Source of the DNA: Eledone cirrhosa
Taxonomy: Eukaryota
Assembly: GCA_964016885.1 (NCBI GenBank)
Contig: OZ024745.1
Location: forward strand, 116,374,001 to 116,438,000
Reading direction: 5' to 3'
DNA length: 64,000 nt
Position numbers and translations under genes: made by a program. Positions 3,084-62,835 of the stretch are shown here, one piece after another. Position 1 is the stretch's first letter, and each line of letters begins with the position of its first letter. The notes under the pieces are model-generated. The model did no database searches and had not been told where the DNA came from. It saw nothing but the letters and a program-made list of their open reading frames with translations.

Positions 3084-3179
3084 ACCCCCTGAAAAGTTCG
3101 GCTATTTATTTACCAGGGTAAAAATTATAATTTAGTCTAGAAATAGCCGTAGAAACGGCTTGAGCTCTGCCGTCGGGGT
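3084..3179 (+). ncRNA. Degenerate type I hammerhead ribozyme
   Basis: acccc-CTGAAAA-g(ttcggctattt...aaatagccgta)-GAAA-cggc ttgagctct gcc-GTC-ggggt. Stems I, II and III and a GUC triplet are present; G8 is A. Confidence 0.6.
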
Positions 3180-3269
3180 CATACATTTTACTATTACCCT
3201 CTCTGCTACCCTAAGTATGAATACTCTGGTGCATTATGGTCCATCTGGTTCCTTACCACAACTCCTTCG

Positions 3270-4065
3270 TTATATATCGAAGCGATTCCTCGAAGTGCTG
3301 GAGACGAACGGGTACCCTACCCCGCTCACAAACAGAGTAAGAGACACCAGACACAAGAGACAGAGAAACACCCAAGGCAAGTGCTTCCTTAAAATACCAC
3401 ACCTGGGCGAGAATACCACCAACGCTATCCGCAAGGCTATACGGAGGGAGGGCCTCGACATCCACCTGGCCCACTCGGGCCCCTCCCTGCGAAGATGCCT
3501 CTCCAGGAAACCCGGGAAATCAAATGACGGGTGCTCCCTCAGAGACTGCCCGATGCGCCATACGAACTGTTGCCTACGCACATACGTCGTGTATAAGATA
3601 GAATGTAACAAGTGCAACCAATACTATATATGTAGCACAATCAGGCCGCTGCACATCCGGATCAAGGAGCACACTAGCACCAGGGCCTCGTCTTTCTGGA
3701 AACACATAGCTAAATGCGGAAACAAAGACGGAAGGCCCATTGTCACAATTCTAGCGACAGAAAGAAACGTCGGCACATTACGATTAAATGAAGCACTTTG
3801 GATCAAACGCCTAGGGCGACAAATAAACAACCGATCCGAGAGAAGCGAAATGAGGTGGTTGGTTTAAGTAAACAAACGATGCAGCAACACACGCACACAC
3901 GCACACACACAAGCGAGACAGCAACACACACAAGCGAGACAGCAACACACGCACAAACACACACACACAGTAGCATTCCACCATACGAACATACTACACT
4001 GACAATACAGACGAACGAGGCAACAACACACACACACACACACACACACTCAAGCGAGACAACAA

Positions 4066-9780: not shown

Positions 9781-9869
9781 AATAAAACTGGAAAAATATG
9801 TGTGATATATGTATGTGTGTGTGTGTGTGAGTCTAAGTGTGTTTGCCTAGTGAGGACATTGATTTAATT

Positions 9870-10930
9870 TGAAAGAAAGAATGAAACTGGCCGTTATGAT
9901 GTTGAAATCCAGAATTAGACATTCTGGTGCATTTCTGTCCATTCGATTATTGATCTTAAGTTTTAAATGCTTGATTAAGGGGGCTTCCTTAATTCTCAGC
10001 GTTTCTATACTGCGTTCGATAGCTAAGATTGTGGTGGTAATGTTGGCCTGGTTCCTACATTTGATGATGTGCTTGCGAAAGATAGAGGAATTGTTGTTAA
10101 CATGCTCTTTAATACGGAGATGTAACGATCGAATAGTATTGCCTATGTAAAATAGATTACACTTGTTACATTCTAGCCTGTATACTACGTAGGTACGTAG
10201 GCAACAATTAGTGTTGCGGATCGTGCAATTGGCTAGGTTGCATCCGTTATCCTTGCTGGGGGGGGGGGGGGTCCTTGTGAAGAGGCACCTTCAAAGGGAA
10301 TGTCCAGAGTGAGCTAGTTTGGTATTGAGGCCCACTGTTTTGATGGCTTTGCGTATGGCGTTGGTAGTTTCGTCGCTGAGATGTGGAATCTTGAAGAAGC
10401 AACTGTTGTTTGTGTTGGTCCCGTCTCTGGTTCTGGCGTTTCGTTGTGGGGTGGAGAAGGAAGTTGGGTAGCTGTTAATCTCTAGTACCTTGTAGAGTCG
10501 TCTGATACTGGTGGCTCTATTAGCAGCGTCGCTGCATCGGTTGCGTATGCGAGACACTTCGCTTCGTTGAAGATGTACCCTCTTTTAGAGGTTATCGGGA
10601 GGGCAGATTTGTAATGAACAAAATGTCCCTGCTGGCAGCTTTGCAGTAGAAATCGGTGTGAATTTCACCGCTATCAGAGTTGTTCAGTCTGAAATCAAGT
10701 AAAGGGAGGGACCCGGAGTTGGTAGGGTGTTCGATGGTAAACTTGATGTTATTGTCAACATTGTTGAAAGATTCGAAAATCTTGCTGGTATTCTCTTTGT
10801 TGGATATGAGGATGAGTATATGATCCACATATCTAGTGAAGAAAGAGCAGTTGTCGCAGAAGCTGAGTACTCGGCGTTCAAGACTGTTCATATATGGAAT
10901 GACCAGTAAACCCGAGAGGCTGGATCCCAT
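9870..10930 (-). mobile_element. Penelope-like element (RT C-half plus GIY-YIG), frameshifted
   Basis: MGSSLSG...RYVDH...LPLLDF (RT) and CCLRTYVVYRLECNKCNLFYIGNTIRSLHLRIKEH (endonuclease). Same family as 3270-3867. Confidence 0.9.
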
Positions 10931-11201
10931 GGGTAGTCCAGAGGCTCACTCCTTAATCTTACGATCGAAAATTTAACGATCTCAAATATTTTCAGGTTTA
11001 AAAAAACCCGATAATATTTGGGATCGCTAAATTTGCGAAGGTATGATTCTTTTGTTATCTTGATAATTTTAACAATCTTCATAACGCAGTGTGTTGGTCT
11101 TCAACATTTACTTTACTGTTTCCTCTTAAACAGAGCTTCAAGCAAACTACAAAACTCTGTTGTGTGTGTATATATATATATATATATATGTAGGAGGTGA
11201 G

Positions 11202-11330: not shown

Positions 11331-11397
11331 TTTTATCTGATGAAAACACAAATATTATTGTTTGATGATGTTTGTTTTTGAAATGCGCATAATAAAA
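11331..11397 (+). ncRNA. Minimal type I hammerhead ribozyme
   Basis: ttttat-CTGATGA-[15-bp stem II, 14/15 paired]-GAAA-tgcgc-ATA-ataaaa; palindromic stem III ATGCGCAT. Confidence 0.75.
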
Positions 11398-11631: not shown

Positions 11632-13080
11632 TAAATAAGAGAGACGGTTTTATTCGTAAATCCCTATTTTATACGTTGTACGTATTTTGAAGACGAAAGG
11701 TAGTTATATAATTACTGCTTTATACGTTCTGTTCAGACAAGTATACAAACGAGATGTAAAATTCCATTGATATGTTGCAGGTCGCACGTGTTATTCACCT
11801 CGCTGACCAATACACATATGGCCAAATATCTCTAGTAGCAGCCCTTTTATGTGCGGGAAATAGTTGTTGTTGTTGCCATTGGTGATTGTAAACTAAATAG
11901 GGTATCAGGTTACCAGATTTGTCACCTGATTCGTAGCAACCGTCCTAGGAACGTTAAAAATGCTATAATCAAAAGTGTAGAACAGAGAATCTCTAGGTTA
12001 TAAGCTAATAGGGAAATGTTCGCTGGCAAGGCTAGATACTATAATAATGCATTAGCTAGAGCCGGTTACCAGGAGAAAATTGAGTACATGCACGTAGATA
12101 GAAACAATTACACACCCACACATAGACACAAACTAACCAAAGGCATGAACATAGGACTCTGTAATGGAAACTGTAGGGGTACTCAAATCCAAAATAATAG
12201 AGACAGCATAATCCCGGCTCCAAATAAATATAATTCCACTACCACCAAGAAGTTAAAAAAGAGAGTGAGAACCCGTTCCGTTCTGTGGTACAACCCAACC
12301 CCCTCTTTAGGACTACAAGAATCTTTTAACACATTAGATAAATGTTTTCCTAGATCACACAAATACAGTCACATATTTAATCGACACACGATTAAACTGT
12401 CTTACTCGACAACCAAAAAATAGCTTAGAATATAGCGAAAATTAAGTATGGAAATGTGGGAATTAAACATAAAGAGAAAACACATAATAGCAAGCATAAA
12501 AACACTGATAGAATAAGCAGCAACTCGAATAACAGAGATAACACCATTAACATAGATGAGACAAACCAACAGATACAGAGACACAGGGAAGGAACAATGC
12601 ACGGTAACGGGAATAATTGCAATTGTAGAGATCATTACGGTTGCCCAGTGTAAATAATTGTCTAGAGAAGAATATTGTTTACGAATGTAGAGTAACAAGG
12701 AGAAGTTAAATTAAAATAAATATCTAAGTGAATAAAATCTAGTCCGAAAATATATAAGAAAAATAAAAAATATAGATTAACAGTTCCTCCGTGTCATCCA
12801 ACGAACCAAGCGACAAATCCGGTAACCTGATACCCTAGTCAGTTTACAGTCACCAATGGCAACAACAACAAATATCTAGAGATATTTGGCCGTATGTGTA
12901 TTGGTCAGCGAGGTGAGTAACACGTGCGACCTGTAACATATCAATGGAATTTTACATCTCGTTTGTATACTTGCCTGAAGAGAACGTATAAGGCGGTAAT
13001 TATATAACTACCTTACGTCTTCAAAATACGTATAACGTATAAAATAGGGATTTACGAATAAAACTAACTTTCTTATTTAT
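11632..13080 (+). mobile_element. 5'-truncated Penelope-like element flanked by ~290-bp inverted terminal repeats
   Basis: 11935-12700 encodes YYNNALARAGY...WYNPTPS...FNRHTIKLSYS...CNCRDHYGCPV. 11632-11934 is the reverse complement of 12801-13080. Confidence 0.85.
12966..13041 (+). ncRNA. Degenerate hammerhead-like motif in PLE terminal repeat
   Basis: tatac..CTGAAGA-gaacg...cgtcttc-AAAA(G12A)-tacgt-ATA..gtata. Confidence 0.4.
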
Positions 13081-13343: not shown

Positions 13344-13392
13344 TGTATGCGTTTGTGTACATTTATGTATCAGCTGTGCTAGGGCGAAAAAT
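13123..13392. repeat. Inverted repeat flanking TA tracts
   Basis: cacagctgataca..aatgta..acgcatacacct / aggtgtatgcgt..tacatt..tgtatcagctgtg. Confidence 0.7.
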
Positions 13393-13717
13393 TAGATTAT
13401 AATTTTATTTTTCATTTTAGGCACCGTTAGCTGTAACTCACACGGTATGCAAATGAGGTGACTCAGTAGATGTCTACTTAAGAAAATACTATATATTTTC
13501 AACCATTCAACAGATTGGCAGAGGCATACAGTCCTGCTGAAGGGCAATGACCCAGAAACATGTTGATTGTTCCTCAATGCCAGTGTTGATTACAACACGA
13601 TGATCGCTCATCGGCACGGCACAGCTTTAATCGGGCCATCTGTTTACAAAGGAATCGATTATTATTATTAATATTCGATATAGTTCAAATCTATCATGGA
13701 ACTCAATGTATTCTATT

Positions 13718-13787
<70 letters not shown>

Positions 13788-13885
13788 TCCATATATATAT
13801 ATATATTCATTTAGGTTTGTTGGTTCACCACTGGATAGAACGGGTCATTCCGTATCGTCAACCTTGATGTAATATATATATCTAT

Positions 13886-14578: not shown

Positions 14579-14624
<46 letters not shown>

Positions 14625-14626
<2 letters not shown>

Positions 14627-14879
14627 CTCACTCGAAATGCAAATTAGGCTGCTCAGCCGTTAATATACATAAGGAAAGTATATACTTTCAAACGTTCAAT
14701 CATCTGACAGAAAGGTATACGATGCTGACGATAGCTAATAAGCTTGAAACTAGTACATCGTTCCTGTGTGAGTGTTGAACAAAAAGGCGACGATGGTTGC
14801 CGAGCAATGTACGGCGTAATTCGGGCTGTTTGTTTACAAACAAACCGAACTTGGTAATAAATGTTCGGTAAACCCATAC

Positions 14880-14882
<3 letters not shown>
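14625..14882 (+). mobile_element. HHR-bearing non-coding repeat (inverted homolog of the 19890-20145 and 20320-20512 units)
   Basis: Colinear reverse-complement similarity; flanked by (TA)n on both sides. Confidence 0.8.
14719..14761 (+). ncRNA. Minimal type I hammerhead ribozyme
   Basis: acgatg-CTGACGA-tagct aata agctt-GAAA-cta-GTA-catcgt; perfect 6-bp stem I, palindromic ACTAGT stem III. Confidence 0.8.
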
Positions 14883-14921
<39 letters not shown>

Positions 14922-15108
14922 TCATCTATGTATATATATACATACTAATGTACGTCTGTACACATATATGTAATTACGTATACATACTTATATTTATATA
15001 TATATATATATGCATACATTTAATATAAAAATCTCTTCTACGTGTCTAAAATCCAGAAAAGTGCGATTGAACCCGGGGCTCACGCACACACACAAATACA
15101 CACACACT

Positions 15109-19726: not shown

Positions 19727-19800
<74 letters not shown>

Positions 19801-20004
19801 AGTATGTATACGTACATACATATATGTATACAGACGTAAAGTAGTATGTATATATATATACATACATGCACACACATATATATGTACGTATGGATTCACC
19901 GAACATTTATTATAATGCTCGGTGTATTTGTAAACAAACATCCCGAATTAGCCGTACAGTGTCTAGCAACCATCGTTGCTCATTTGTTCACCACTGACAA
20001 AGGA

Positions 20005-20047
20005 ATGCTGTACTAGTTTCAAGCTTATTAGCTTTCGTCAGCAACGT
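20005..20047 (-). ncRNA. Minimal type I hammerhead ribozyme
   Basis: acgttg-CTGACGA-aagct aata agctt-GAAA-cta-GTA-cagcat. Confidence 0.75.
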
Positions 20048-20435
20048 ATACATTCATGCCAGATGGTTGAATGTCTGAAAGTATATACTTTCCTTATGCA
20101 TATTAACGGCTGAGCAGCCTAATTTTTATATATCGAGTGAGTTAATGGGCCAGGGTACCGAAAACGATAAACGGAAAAAATGAAACGAAATTTCATTTCT
20201 CACTCTTAGTACGGCTGTTACTTAAATATAAGAATGTATACGTACATACATATATGTATACAGACGTACAGTAGTATGTATATATATATACATACATGCA
20301 CACATATATATATATGTACGTATTGATTCACCGAACATTTATTATAATGCTCGGTGTGTTTGTAAACAGTCATCCCGAATTAAGCCGTAGTGTCTAGCAA
20401 CCATCGTTGCTCATTGGTTCAACACTGACAAAGGA

Positions 20436-20478
20436 ACGCTGTACTAGTTTCAAGCTTAATAGCTATCGTCAGCAACGT
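20436..20478 (-). ncRNA. Minimal type I hammerhead ribozyme
   Basis: acgttg-CTGACGA-tagct atta agctt-GAAA-cta-GTA-cagcgt. Confidence 0.75.
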
Positions 20479-21094
20479 ATACCTTCCTGCCAGATGGTTG
20501 AACGTCTGAAAGTCTTTAAGTTCCTCAAGGATTCGTAAAGACTAGTTACTTTTGAAATATATTTACGGGTTCGTTCATATTTCCGTCGTAGATGGAACTT
20601 CATACCACGGTTAAGATTGATTTGAAAGTATTTGAATACTGCGTTGTTAGAGTACAACAGTAGACATCTTCGAAATTCTGCTCGTTGGTTCTAACCTCAT
20701 AAATTCTACTAAGATTTTTATGCAAGTTATTATGGTTTCGTCTGAAATGTCTTCGAGCATTGTGAGAATATATTATAATACTTTTTGTTAGTTACTGACT
20801 TTTTGGTGTCTTTCCAATAAGTAGAATTTCCTCCTGTATGACTTGTTAAATATCCTGTATATCTCTATATTTGTAGTATTCAAATAGATGTTTCCGGAAT
20901 TATGTATTATATATTTCGTTTCATCGTGCAATTTTACGTTAGTGAATACGAGATAATGTTTTCCTTTTAACAATCATTAATAATTTCTCGAGAGCGTTTT
21001 CTCTTTGTCTATCGTACTTTTTCACACCTCCGCATACTAAGTATTATGTATTTTCTATCTGATAAGAATATTCCCTGGTTCGCCGAGTTATATG

Positions 21095-40287: not shown

Positions 40288-40732
40288 GTTATGCTTTGGA
40301 AGGGTCATGTTGCCAATAAGAAACACACTTACCAGTTGCTGTCATTCCAATTTATTGTAAATTAAATTTATAAATTTAAGAATTTATAAATTTCCGGTTG
40401 GTTGGTTGGTTCCACAACCGGACGGTTGTTGATATATTGTCAAAGTTCTTTCGTCACACATTCTGTGACCTCTTCGGTGACTGGGGATTCTTTTCTTTGT
40501 TTTTGCGCCTCAAAAACAAAAACAAAGAAAATAATCCCCAGTCACTGAAGAGGTCACAGAATGTGTTACGAAAGAACTTTGACAATATATGAAGAACCGT
40601 CCGGTTGTGGAACCAACCAACCAACCGGAAATTTATAAATTCTTAAATTTATAAATTTACTTTACAATAAATTGGAATGAACTTCTGGTGCGTGTGTTTC
40701 TTATTGGCAACATGGCCCTCCCAAAGCATAAC
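40288..40732. repeat. ~445-bp palindrome with an HHR motif in each arm
   Basis: Arms of ~220 bp around a spacer at ~40505-40511. A partial family copy lies at 58025-58160. Confidence 0.9.
40541..40583 (+). ncRNA. Minimal hammerhead motif (mirror copy at 40439-40481, minus)
   Basis: gtca-CTGAAGA-ggtcacagaatgtgttac-GAAA-gaa-CTT-tgac. Confidence 0.55.
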
Positions 40733-60548: not shown

Positions 60549-62835
60549 GTGGAACACTGGAAGGTAATATCCGTTTTGGTAGAGCACTCAGTCCATGGGA
60601 CGAGTTAGGTAGAGGTGGTTACACAACAGTTAGTTCACCATACAGGAAACAATTGTTTCACCTTAGCGGATCCTCAGCTCGGAATGGGCATGGTTATAGG
60701 AACAGGAAGGACAACCGTACGAACGCGCATGCGCAGAAACCCGGTCATTTCACACAGGCAATACTATAATGCGTGCGAGAGGTGTAAGGGAGATAACTGC
60801 GAAAGTCCGAAAAGTTTTTAGTTGAAAAATAAAATTACAAAGAATCAGTCCGGAGCCTTGTAGTTATGTAATAAGTGCTTGGCGACGTCTGGACAACGTG
60901 TGAAAAATTGATTTCTCGTGTTTATGCAATCTCTATTGCGTAATCTCTTTAGACTAGTTATTCGTTCGTCAATACATAAGCCACACGTCGGATTTCCCCT
61001 TGCGTATGGCTTGGACTTAGTGATGGATTTCCAATGAATGGAGTAGTCTATACTTGAGTCCTTGAGGGACCATACATGGCTCGTGAGAGTCGTGGATGAA
61101 CGTCCGTCCGGGTACCTGAAGGTAGACTGGTGGTTCAGGAAACGTTCCTTAAATCGTCCCTCCGCCATGCCCACATAGGATTTGATCTCCTGTAGTTCGT
61201 TTGGTCGGTTGGAAGTGACCACAGCTTCATAAATTACAGCTGGTGTGTTGCATTGCTGTTGAAGGGGGCAAGCATCAGGCTTACGGCAAGAGCACCCTAG
61301 TGGGATGTTGCTCCTAGGGCTGCTGGTGATGTAGGCCTTCATGTTCTTAGCGCAGGGGTATCCTAGTTTAACTTAGTGTCGGTTAACTTAGTGTCGGTTA
61401 AAGATGGAGCGGTATTTATGACTTATGGCAACGTGTATATCTAAGAGGGTTAGACATTTTTTCCTACATTGGTTTTAACGTTGAGTGAGAAGGGAGGAGA
61501 GAACCAGATAGTTTGTCTATTGTTGTGCTAACTTTTCCTAATGGTGTTGTTGCTAGTGGGAGAGTAAGTGAGAGGTTGTGAGAAGCCGCTATTAGCTAAC
61601 GCCGTGTTATAGTAGGGTGCCGCCCTGTCAAAGATAGCCTTATTAGAGGAGAGGTTTGAGATTCTAGTACTGATATTCTTAACGAAGTTTCTAAAAACAG
61701 TGGGAGGGTGGCATGAGTCCTTGTGAATGTAATTGAGTTTCTCGTTTAGCTTATGGAAGGGTCTGTGGGTGTGTGTGCGAAGGTCTAAATTAATGTCTAA
61801 GAAATCTACGCTAGAGAGGTTGGTGACTACTGTTATCCTAAGTCCTAACTCATTGAAGATAGAAGCTAAGTCTTTTTTAAACCGGTTGAGGTCGTGACCA
61901 CTTTTATGGCTCGATAAAGTCAGTCCATCGTCGCAGTATATTCCCGTGTTGAAGTCCGGGAATCTAACACGTAATATGTCTAAGATAAATAGGCCAACCA
62001 AGTCACATACGTCAGCACTGTCAAACGATCCCATGGAGACGTCGAATAGGTCTGAAGTTGCAGACTTCTTTGCCCAGGCTACTTCGTCGTTGAAGAGTAG
62101 GGCTTTTTCGGCAGTGAGCGATGATTTCCCTGTCTAAACCATCGACGGTGGTATAAGTGGTAGCGAAGTCCAACGCTTTGTTTAACAGGGTCTCTGAGAT
62201 CGACGGGTAAAAATCGACAATGTCAAACTGTGTGAACTTAGCTTTTTTGGATTTTAAGGAGTTAAACCACTTAATTACGGAGTCGCTGTTCTCCCACTTG
62301 GGCAGGTTGGACTTGGTCCTAATGATCTTAACTATGTTTCTAAGTATGGCCGTACTGATTAGTCCCATATCTGTGCGTGCCGGGTTTCTTAGTCTACATG
62401 TGGGATTAGAAGTAAAGTCTACCTTGTGATCTTTCAGGGCGAGGGACGCCTCCCGCTTAGCTAGAGATTGTAGCTTCTTATCTACCTTAAGGTCGGCGGC
62501 AAGTTCCTTGGCCTATGTATTAATGTCGTGGTAGGCCATAGGGTTAGCTTTCTTATAATTAGAAGTAATAGCGTTATGGACCAGGTGGGTGAAAGTGGTG
62601 TTGTCGACTTCGTAAAATGATTAGTTTTGTCGGAAAGAACGAAGGTGTTATTAGAAGACCTAAATTTCTTAATATCATTTCTGAGTTTCGTTTAAAAGGT
62701 GTTAGTGTGTTTGCGAAAGGAAATGTTAGCGACTAAGTCAAGAAGGTCCATCTCGAAAGGAGCAAGTTCATTTACCTTAGGAGGGTAGGCTCTAGATTTC
62801 AGGTTGAATGTGTTGTTGGTGCCTGTAATTTTCCC
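60545..62835 (-). mobile_element. Penelope-like element, long frameshifted copy (RT plus GIY-YIG plus 3' terminal region)
   Basis: FDIVDFYPSI, MGSFDSADVCDLVG, YCDDG, FLDINL, CSCRKPDACPL, VIYEA...SYVG. Confidence 0.92.
60643..60682 (-). ncRNA. Minimal hammerhead in the PLE 3' terminal region
   Basis: CTGAGGA-tcc gctaa ggt-GAAA-caatt-GTT; palindromic ACAATTGT; stem I eroded. Confidence 0.6.

What the first reader, a model, noticed from the sequence alone, without database searches (positions are those of the whole stretch)
19803..20512. Third HHR family: tandem pair 431 nt apart plus an inverted solo copy at 14.7 kb
Seen: three copies of CUGACGA..GAAA-CUA-GUA with an invariant core. Stem I is acgaug/caucgu at 14719 and acguug/cagcgu at 20436, so a double change (A-U to U-G) keeps pairing. 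The palindromic ACUAGU stem III suits dimeric cleavage between tandem copies. The spacing is close to that of the unrelated 59.8 kb pair (431 versus 434 nt). Inference: a functional minimal HHR dimer.
Basis: partly seen in the sequence, partly recalled or inferred. Interest (0 to 1): 0.7.

Follow-up and report, generated by a model that had tools for sequence, protein, structure and literature searches.

The report
Aged copies of a hammerhead retrozyme
These are ageing copies of a very abundant protein-free jumping repeat whose roughly 430-base unit carries a hammerhead (predicted self-cutting) RNA motif and is likely copied from a small RNA circle by a borrowed Penelope-type enzyme; the kind of element is already known, and this particular pair is probably no longer active.

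Summary
In detail: three type I hammerhead motifs, two 431 nt apart, with the stated stem I change and palindromic stem III. They belong to a non-coding repeat with at least 14,499 copies. Insertions show Penelope-type marks: (TA)n targets, two fixed 3' ends, 5' inversions with the tail on one arm (29 of 36 inverted pairs), arrays of about ten units and no ORF. A sister family, 62% identical, keeps the core with double changes in 7 of 11 pairs, so the ribozyme was likely kept under selection in source elements. The units carry an octamer/TATA block spaced like the host's U6/U2 promoters. The window pair is a 1.65-unit insertion that decays neutrally: no intact promoter block, and a C·A mismatch in one stem I. 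The 'solo' copy is an independent truncated insertion. The motif has canonical, not 'minimal', geometry. The 431/434 match reflects overlapping unit lengths of distantly related families. Cleavage, expression and the helper element were not shown. This is a new member of the metazoan non-LTR retrozymes; the scan had already reported these traits for retrozyme repeats at other loci in this genome.

The parts
19799..20512 (-). Retrozyme insertion of 1.65 units: 5'-truncated unit (20512-20231) plus full unit (20230-19800); 3' end without tail, joined to (TA)n
20436..20478 (-). Upstream hammerhead (stem I ACGUUG/CAGCGU, U·U at 10.1-11.1); predicted cut between 20442 and 20441
20005..20047 (-). Downstream hammerhead (C·A mismatch in stem I, A-U at 10.1-11.1); predicted cut between 20011 and 20010
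20011..20441 (-). Predicted 431-nt monomer, cut site to cut site; 35% GC; folds at -122.8 kcal/mol, z = -6.0
20167..20230 (-). 'Tail' segment between the family's two fixed 3' ends (unit positions about 5 and 64); includes a hairpin and a T6 run
20078..20133 (-). Promoter-like block of the downstream unit: octamer destroyed, TCAG and TATA-like element present
19800..19895 (-). Self-complementary TA/CA/TG-rich hairpin at the unit end
14624..14998 (+). Independent 5'-truncated copy of the A-U subfamily, about 87% identical to the tandem, flanked by (TA)n on both sides; intact octamer at 14637-14644
14719..14761 (+). Hammerhead of the single copy (stem I ACGAUG/CAUCGU); predicted cut between 14755 and 14756
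13361..13799 (+). Fourth, distant relative of the unit, with octamer at 13447 and a decayed hammerhead

Best explanation
The pair and the single copy are ageing insertions of an abundant non-coding repeat whose ~430-nt unit carries a type I hammerhead motif and whose ends bear Penelope-type marks; in young source copies the unit is likely transcribed from an internal snRNA-like promoter, is predicted to self-cleave (probably as a dimer through the palindromic stem III) into a monomer that would be circularised, and is likely copied by a borrowed Penelope-like RT/endonuclease into (TA)n DNA. SHOWN: motif, copy number, absence of ORF, tandem/inverted architecture, two fixed 3' ends, (TA)n targets, covariation between lineages, neutral decay of individual copies, and the lesions in the window pair. 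INFERRED: transcription start about 13-16 nt before CUGA (from TATA spacing), cleavage, dimer mode, circularisation, rolling reverse transcription started at two sites (one per arm), and a Penelope-like helper. The window pair is a 1.65-turn product that has lost its promoter block and probably does nothing now.
For: 9,874 exact core matches and 14,499 flank-selected matches, controls 0 and 2. In 77 loci / 123 segments: 55 3' ends at unit positions 48-65 (42 at 63-65), 56 at the unit end, 12 elsewhere; 93 of those 111 are followed by (TA)4 or (TC)4 within 30 nt; 34 of 77 loci are inverted; 29 of 36 inverted pairs have the tail on exactly one arm, none on both or neither, 7 unclassed. This is the PLE structure in PMC8557442 (Fig. 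2 legend) and the two RT start sites in PMC11167929. One insertion into a non-microsatellite target has a 9-bp duplication. Two-armed arrays: 9 full units differing at 0-3 of 323 sites (L178); sister locus with 7 + 13 units and no variable column. Tandem neighbours are no more divergent than inverted arms (4.4% vs 4.8%; shared rare alleles 1.3 vs 1.2 per kb, background 0.11). Sister family (9,410 matches; 253/409 identical) keeps the core and ACUAGU, matches Rfam Hammerhead_HH9 at E 4e-7, and ends at homologous points. 92% of cells paired, 7 of 11 pairs with double changes. Five lineage-level changes in the 33-nt core region all avoid the 23 invariant, stem II and palindrome positions (P about 0.001). 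Octamer fixed 80-100 nt before CUGA in three families, absent in eight other hammerhead-like motif sets; host U6 has it at -76 to -78 in 3 of 5 distinct loci, host U2 has TCAG at -57/-58 in 3 of 3.
Against: No cleavage or expression data. 5' ends do not cluster at the cut site (1 of 123 within 5 nt, 3.1 expected): expected for a circle, but it gives no trace of cleavage. Folding does not favour the double hammerhead: 3.9 and 5.8 kcal/mol worse than two monomers in young units, equal in the window, 7-11 above the MFE. Arrays also grow at DNA level (A-B-A-B pattern in L062; shared variants in two of three long sister arrays), and a homogeneous array could be copied as a linear multimer. The tandem-vs-inverted test has little power, because between-locus divergence is only 5.2%. 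No helper with a homologous terminal repeat was found among 20 Neptune-like and 12 Hydra-like loci or in 1.49 Mb of loci. Covariation rests on few events (two families and a few subfamilies), and the 10.1-11.1 'double change' leans on one window copy. The P of 0.001 treats the 10.1·11.1 mismatch as free after the fact; against the 11 invariant positions alone P = 0.11. Pairwise promoter matches to U2/U6 are not significant against shuffles, octamer-to-TATA is 41 nt vs 45-47 in U6, and a T6 run in the tail could stop Pol III. In PMC11167929 the PLE hammerhead was not needed for insertion in vitro; in 10.64898/2026.07.22.740005 only 1 of 9 retrozyme dimers cleaved.
Confidence: 0.72

Rival explanations
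1. Non-autonomous Penelope derivative copied from linear multimeric transcripts; the hammerhead helps only to trim transcripts or is a hitch-hiker, and long arrays come from DNA-level duplication.
For: DNA-level expansion is visible. No 5' ends at the cut site. HHR mutants did not impair PLE insertion in vitro (PMC11167929).
Against: Core and stems are kept across families at 62% identity. Two-armed insertions with up to 20 units show no variable column. Tandem and inverted copies share rare alleles equally.
Confidence: 0.15
2. The units are the pseudo-LTRs of an autonomous Penelope-like element, and the copies are its truncated remains.
For: Tail, inversion and (TA)n targeting are PLE traits (PMC8557442). 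Xenopus retrozymes match pLTRs (10.64898/2026.07.22.740005).
Against: Every copy longer than one unit continues into more units, not an ORF (77 loci; 44 more). Nearby PLE ORFs are separated by (TA)n or are insertion hosts. No open frame in the unit. Neither PLE family checked carries the unit.
Confidence: 0.05
3. One reading: this very pair is a working, maintained hammerhead dimer.
For: All 11 invariant nucleotides and both palindromes are intact in both copies, and the double-hammerhead fold is nested and possible.
Against: No excess conservation of the core in copies. The two units are closer to copies elsewhere (95-97%) than to each other (91.5%). Octamer destroyed in one unit, promoter truncated in the other. 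C·A mismatch in one stem I.
Confidence: 0.08

Closest known systems
Metazoan non-LTR retrozymes (Cervera and de la Pena 2020, PMC7229834; parts 2-4 of 6 read)
   Same: Non-coding, AT-rich tandem units of 150-450 bp with one type I hammerhead each; highly self-paired monomer; circle-to-tandem-cDNA model with PLEs as candidate helpers. Axolotl HHR_Amex2 also has a two-pair helix III and a U·U at the base of helix II and cleaves better as a dimer.
   Different: Here the PLE tail, one-arm-tail inversions and (TA)n targeting are counted directly; the parts read do not describe them for retrozymes. No RNA or cleavage data here.
Vertebrate retrozymes as PLE derivatives (Li, Clavereau, Pollet, 10.64898/2026.07.22.740005; parts 1-3 of 5 read; supplements closed)
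   Same: Monomers, dimers and multimers; proposed mobilisation by PLEs.
   Different: No homologous pLTR was found for this family.
PLE min-HHR (Cervera and de la Pena 2014, PMC4209133; parts 1-2 of 4 read; Lunse et al. seen only as a citation and summary in PMC6765202)
   Same: Type I core with palindromic 15.2-16.2/loop 3, proposed dimer cleavage.
   Different: Helix sizes are canonical, G10.1-C11.1 is absent in this family, and no ORF is flanked.
EN+ Penelope-like elements (PMC8557442 passages and Hydra section; PMC11167929 parts 1-2 of 4)
   Same: Partial tandems, 5' inversion, tail at one end, two RT start sites, AT-rich targets.
   Different: No RT-EN ORF; tail is about 59 nt (about 70 in the sister) against 30-40 bp described.
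Newt satellite 2 (snRNA-type internal promoter; seen only as a passage in PMC2220036; the original paper is not held)
   Same: Hammerhead tandem repeat with an internal snRNA-like promoter.
   Different: The promoter here is inferred from motifs only; the polymerase is unknown.

Membership tests
Type I hammerhead ribozyme | 11 invariant core nucleotides and NUH triplet | tested here: met
   All three copies; invariant in 17 aligned sequences
Type I hammerhead ribozyme | Helices I and II supported by covariation | tested here: met
   7 of 11 pairs with double changes, 92% paired; few independent lineages
Type I hammerhead ribozyme | G10.1-C11.1 pair | tested here: not met
   U·U or C·A in this family, G-C in the sister; U·U precedent in axolotl HHR_Amex2
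Type I hammerhead ribozyme | Rfam hammerhead model at gathering score | tested here: not met
   No hit for window copies; sister 38.9 bits against a cut-off of 52
Type I hammerhead ribozyme | Self-cleavage, monomer or dimer; loop 1-loop 2 contacts | not testable with these tools
   Folding energies do not favour the dimer
PLE min-HHR | Helix II 7-8 bp, helix I 4-5 bp, extra nucleotide after A9 | tested here: not met
   6-bp helix I, 4-bp helix II plus mismatch
PLE min-HHR | Palindromic stem III | tested here: met
   ACUAGU invariant in both families
Non-LTR retrozyme | Tandem 150-450 bp units, each with a type I hammerhead, GC below 50% | tested here: met
   Spacings 412-453 nt; 35% GC
Non-LTR retrozyme | No coding capacity | tested here: met
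   Six-frame translation; 77 loci
Non-LTR retrozyme | Highly self-paired monomer | tested here: met
   z = -6.0; circular z = -8.1 and -10.6; microsatellite hairpins contribute
Non-LTR retrozyme | Expressed as linear and circular RNA | not testable with these tools
   No run on record as RNA was listed
Non-LTR retrozyme | Homology to the pLTR of an autonomous PLE | tested here: inconclusive
   None in the two PLE families sampled; other families not sampled
Autonomous Penelope-like element | RT plus GIY-YIG ORF between pLTRs | tested here: not met
Autonomous Penelope-like element | Tail at one end, 5' inversion, AT-rich target | tested here: met

The most novel reading that the evidence does not exclude
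A cephalopod-type retrozyme superfamily runs a complete parasitic cycle that can be read from the genome: a borrowed U6/U2-like promoter starts just before the hammerhead, dimer cleavage makes a ~430-nt circle, and a Penelope RT rolls round that one circle from two conserved start points into both ends of a (TA)n break, giving back-to-back arrays of identical units. This would supply genomic evidence for the circle-to-tandem-cDNA step that the retrozyme papers only hypothesise, and a ready substrate to test it.
Probability: 0.45. Interest if true: 0.62.

Novelty: new member of a known kind. Interest (0 to 1): 0.36.

Why it matters
As a locus it matters little: it is one decayed insertion among an estimated 19,000 hammerhead-bearing copies. 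As a family it offers a test case for two open points: whether Penelope-type enzymes copy retrozyme RNA circles, and whether hammerheads with palindromic stem III are kept for dimer cleavage. The sister family gives a natural U·U versus G-C comparison at the base of helix II. Retrozymes in cephalopods did not appear in my searches, but the scan has recorded the same traits at other loci in this genome.

Tried and rejected
Rfam: only microsatellite-driven miRNA hits, none at gathering score. No tRNA head. Link to neighbouring PLE ORFs rejected: at L114 the element sits inside a Hydra-like ORF with a 9-bp duplication; L031, L039, L099 are separated from ORFs by (TA)n. A young Neptune-like PLE has two 3' ends 60 nt apart, close to this family's ~59 nt, but the sister family's tail is about 70 nt and no sequence is shared, so it is not named as helper. 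A dead-core (C3G) pair was one segmental duplication, 98.6% over 6 kb, not a lineage. A dimer-circle reading of L062 was rejected because the partial unit differs from both repeat types. Alternative pairing of the UAGCUA/AAGCUU palindromes between copies had zero predicted probability. Sequencing runs: no RNA holder listed; three contig sets from at most one sample, possibly the source, only repeated the tail end and subfamily variants. Rows dropped: 9 overlapping loci of 86 before the counts; overlapping or duplicated loci; L180, with L178 and L062 kept out of its pooled means. Lunse et al. 2017 and Coats et al. 1994 are not held; bioRxiv supplements were not seen and may list such families.

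Full report
Observation. The downstream copy has a C·A mismatch in stem I; the other two have U·U at the base of stem II. A full descriptor finds 7 distinct sites in the window and at most 1 in 100 shuffles. Rfam gives no hammerhead hit for these copies.

The family. The window lies in a 3.0-Gb animal genome rich in (TA)n (that it is cephalopod-like is my inference from recalled genome traits and from earlier scan notes). The 34-nt core occurs 9,874 times exactly. A pattern that fixes only the flanks finds 14,499 copies. By eye, 52 of the first 100 rows match the pattern, which gives roughly 19,000 copies, a rough estimate. The tandem is a 1.65-unit insertion (19799-20512); the 'solo' is a 375-nt truncated copy of another subfamily, about 87% identical, with closer relatives elsewhere.

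Insertion anatomy. In 77 non-overlapping loci (86 fetched, 9 dropped as overlaps), 123 segments end either at unit positions 48-65 (55; 42 at 63-65) or at the unit end (56), with 12 elsewhere. 93 of those 111 run into (TA)4 or (TC)4 within 30 nt. 34 loci are inverted head to head; in 29 of 36 inverted pairs exactly one arm has the tail, and the other 7 have one unclassed end. This is the Penelope-like structure described in PMC8557442 and explained by two RT start sites in PMC11167929. 5' ends are scattered; 1 of 123 lies within 5 nt of the predicted cut, against 3.1 expected. No copy continues into an ORF; nearby PLE ORFs are hosts or neighbours.

Template. Young loci have long two-armed arrays: L178 has 9 full units differing at 0-3 of 323 sites. 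Across older loci tandem neighbours (45 pairs, 4.4%) and inverted arms (61 pairs, 4.8%) diverge equally and share rare alleles equally. That is expected if all units of an insertion come from one monomer, but the test is weak, because different loci differ by only 5.2%. DNA-level duplication also occurs (L062; two of three long sister arrays). Rolling copying of a circle is therefore the best reading, not a shown one.

Is the ribozyme maintained? In individual copies, no: among 30 copies not chosen on the core, private substitutions are 4/330 in the invariant core and 59/5010 elsewhere. In source lineages, likely yes: subfamily changes fall at N7, H17, loop II, the mismatched 10.1·11.1 pair and a stem I pair that stays paired as A-U, G·U or U·G; two CpG-type changes in stem I (positions 224, 225) also exceed 8%, one of them breaking a pair. 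A co-linear sister family (9,410 matches; 253/409 identical) keeps every core nucleotide and ACUAGU, has G10.1-C11.1, scores on Rfam Hammerhead_HH9 (38.9 bits, below the cut-off of 52) and stops at homologous 3' points. On 16 distinct sequences, 7 of 11 pairs show double changes and 92% of cells pair, against 26-44% for slid partners; these are few independent events. The geometry is the canonical metazoan type I of PMC4209133, close to axolotl HHR_Amex2 with its U·U, not the min-HHR. Stem III cannot close in a monomer with a 2-nt loop, so dimer cleavage is plausible from established work, but ViennaRNA does not favour the double hammerhead.

Promoter. A profile of both families picked up a fourth, distant copy at 13361-13672 (E 2e-23) and weakly the 59.8-kb family (E 1e-5 to 2e-3). 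They share ATGCAAAT (the 'octamer' label is recalled) upstream of the core: 140 of 224 copies here at 75-89 nt, 80 of 110 sister copies at 100 nt, 19 of 39 in the 59.8-kb family, and 0 in eight other hammerhead-like motif sets. Host U6 loci carry ATGC(A/T)AAT at -76 to -78 (3 of 5 distinct loci) and U2 loci TCAG at -57/-58 (3 of 3), with TATA-like elements near -31 to -34. The family has octamer, TCAG and TATA at -88, -72 and -47 from CUGA, which predicts a start 13-16 nt before CUGA. Pairwise matches were not significant against shuffles, so this rests on position. Newt satellite 2 is a precedent (passage only). In the window tandem the octamer of the full unit is destroyed (108 of 136 anchored copies keep it) and the other unit is cut at the TATA element, so no intact promoter precedes the pair.

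Spacing. Single-unit spacings are 412-453 nt here (33 values), 434-444 in the 59.8-kb family (4 values) and mostly 466-470 in the sister. The 431/434 match is thus overlap of unit lengths in distant relatives, inside the 150-450 bp range reported for retrozymes.

Helper. Not found. Twenty loci of a young Neptune-like PLE and twelve Hydra-like loci share no terminal sequence with the unit.

Comparison and verdict. It works like, and meets the testable features of, a metazoan non-LTR retrozyme; expression and cleavage could not be tested. Searches for octopus or cephalopod with retrozyme or hammerhead ribozyme listed no paper describing such a family; one search listed none on tails or inversions in retrozymes; these were listings only. 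Earlier scan notes report two-armed rolling insertions and snRNA-like promoters for retrozyme repeats at other loci in this genome; sequence look-ups found no note on this stretch. I saw the two-armed architecture and the octamer before those look-ups; the notes prompted the U2/U6 comparison. New member of a known kind; this locus is an aged copy.

Noticed in passing
window 13361-13799 (+): Distant relative of the unit with intact octamer, decayed core and a different palindromic stem III (ACAUGU); another relative in L118 6795-6945.
   Followed up: partly
window 59.6-60.5 kb (-): Second retrozyme-like family (1,205 exact matches), A·A at 10.1·11.1, mostly one 3' end, shares the octamer-TCAG-TATA block; separated by (TA)n from the PLE upstream.
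   Followed up: partly
window 60.6-62.5 kb (-): Broken Hydra-like PLE (RT and endonuclease fragments) with its own hammerhead-like motif at 60677 and palindromic CAAUUG.
   Followed up: partly
window 3136-3867, 9847-10945, 11337, 12004-12423: Further PLE fragments (GIY-YIG and RT hits) and a hammerhead-like motif at 11337 matching a Hydra-like terminal repeat.
   Followed up: partly
L315-L319 (G000:C1 5.74, 14.04, 30.83 Mb): Sister-family arrays of 31, 15 and 20 units with inverted arms; the 20-unit locus has no variable column.
   Followed up: yes
L265-L284: Very young Neptune-like PLE (97-100% protein identity over 150 listed hits, open frames up to 1,261 aa) with two 3' ends 60 nt apart and (TA)n targets.
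   Followed up: partly
L335-L364: Host U2 and U6 genes lie in tandem arrays; U2 promoters have a TATA-like element and no octamer within 300 nt, while U6 has the octamer at about -77.
   Followed up: partly
L066, L092: 310-nt hammerhead tandem family without the octamer.
   Followed up: no
window, 12 copies from 5962 to 53962: Dispersed ~190-nt SINE-like repeat (families D13/D16).
   Followed up: no
window 40445-40574: Hairpin formed by inverted copies of a hammerhead-like CUGAAGA motif of the Neptune-like terminal repeat.
   Followed up: no
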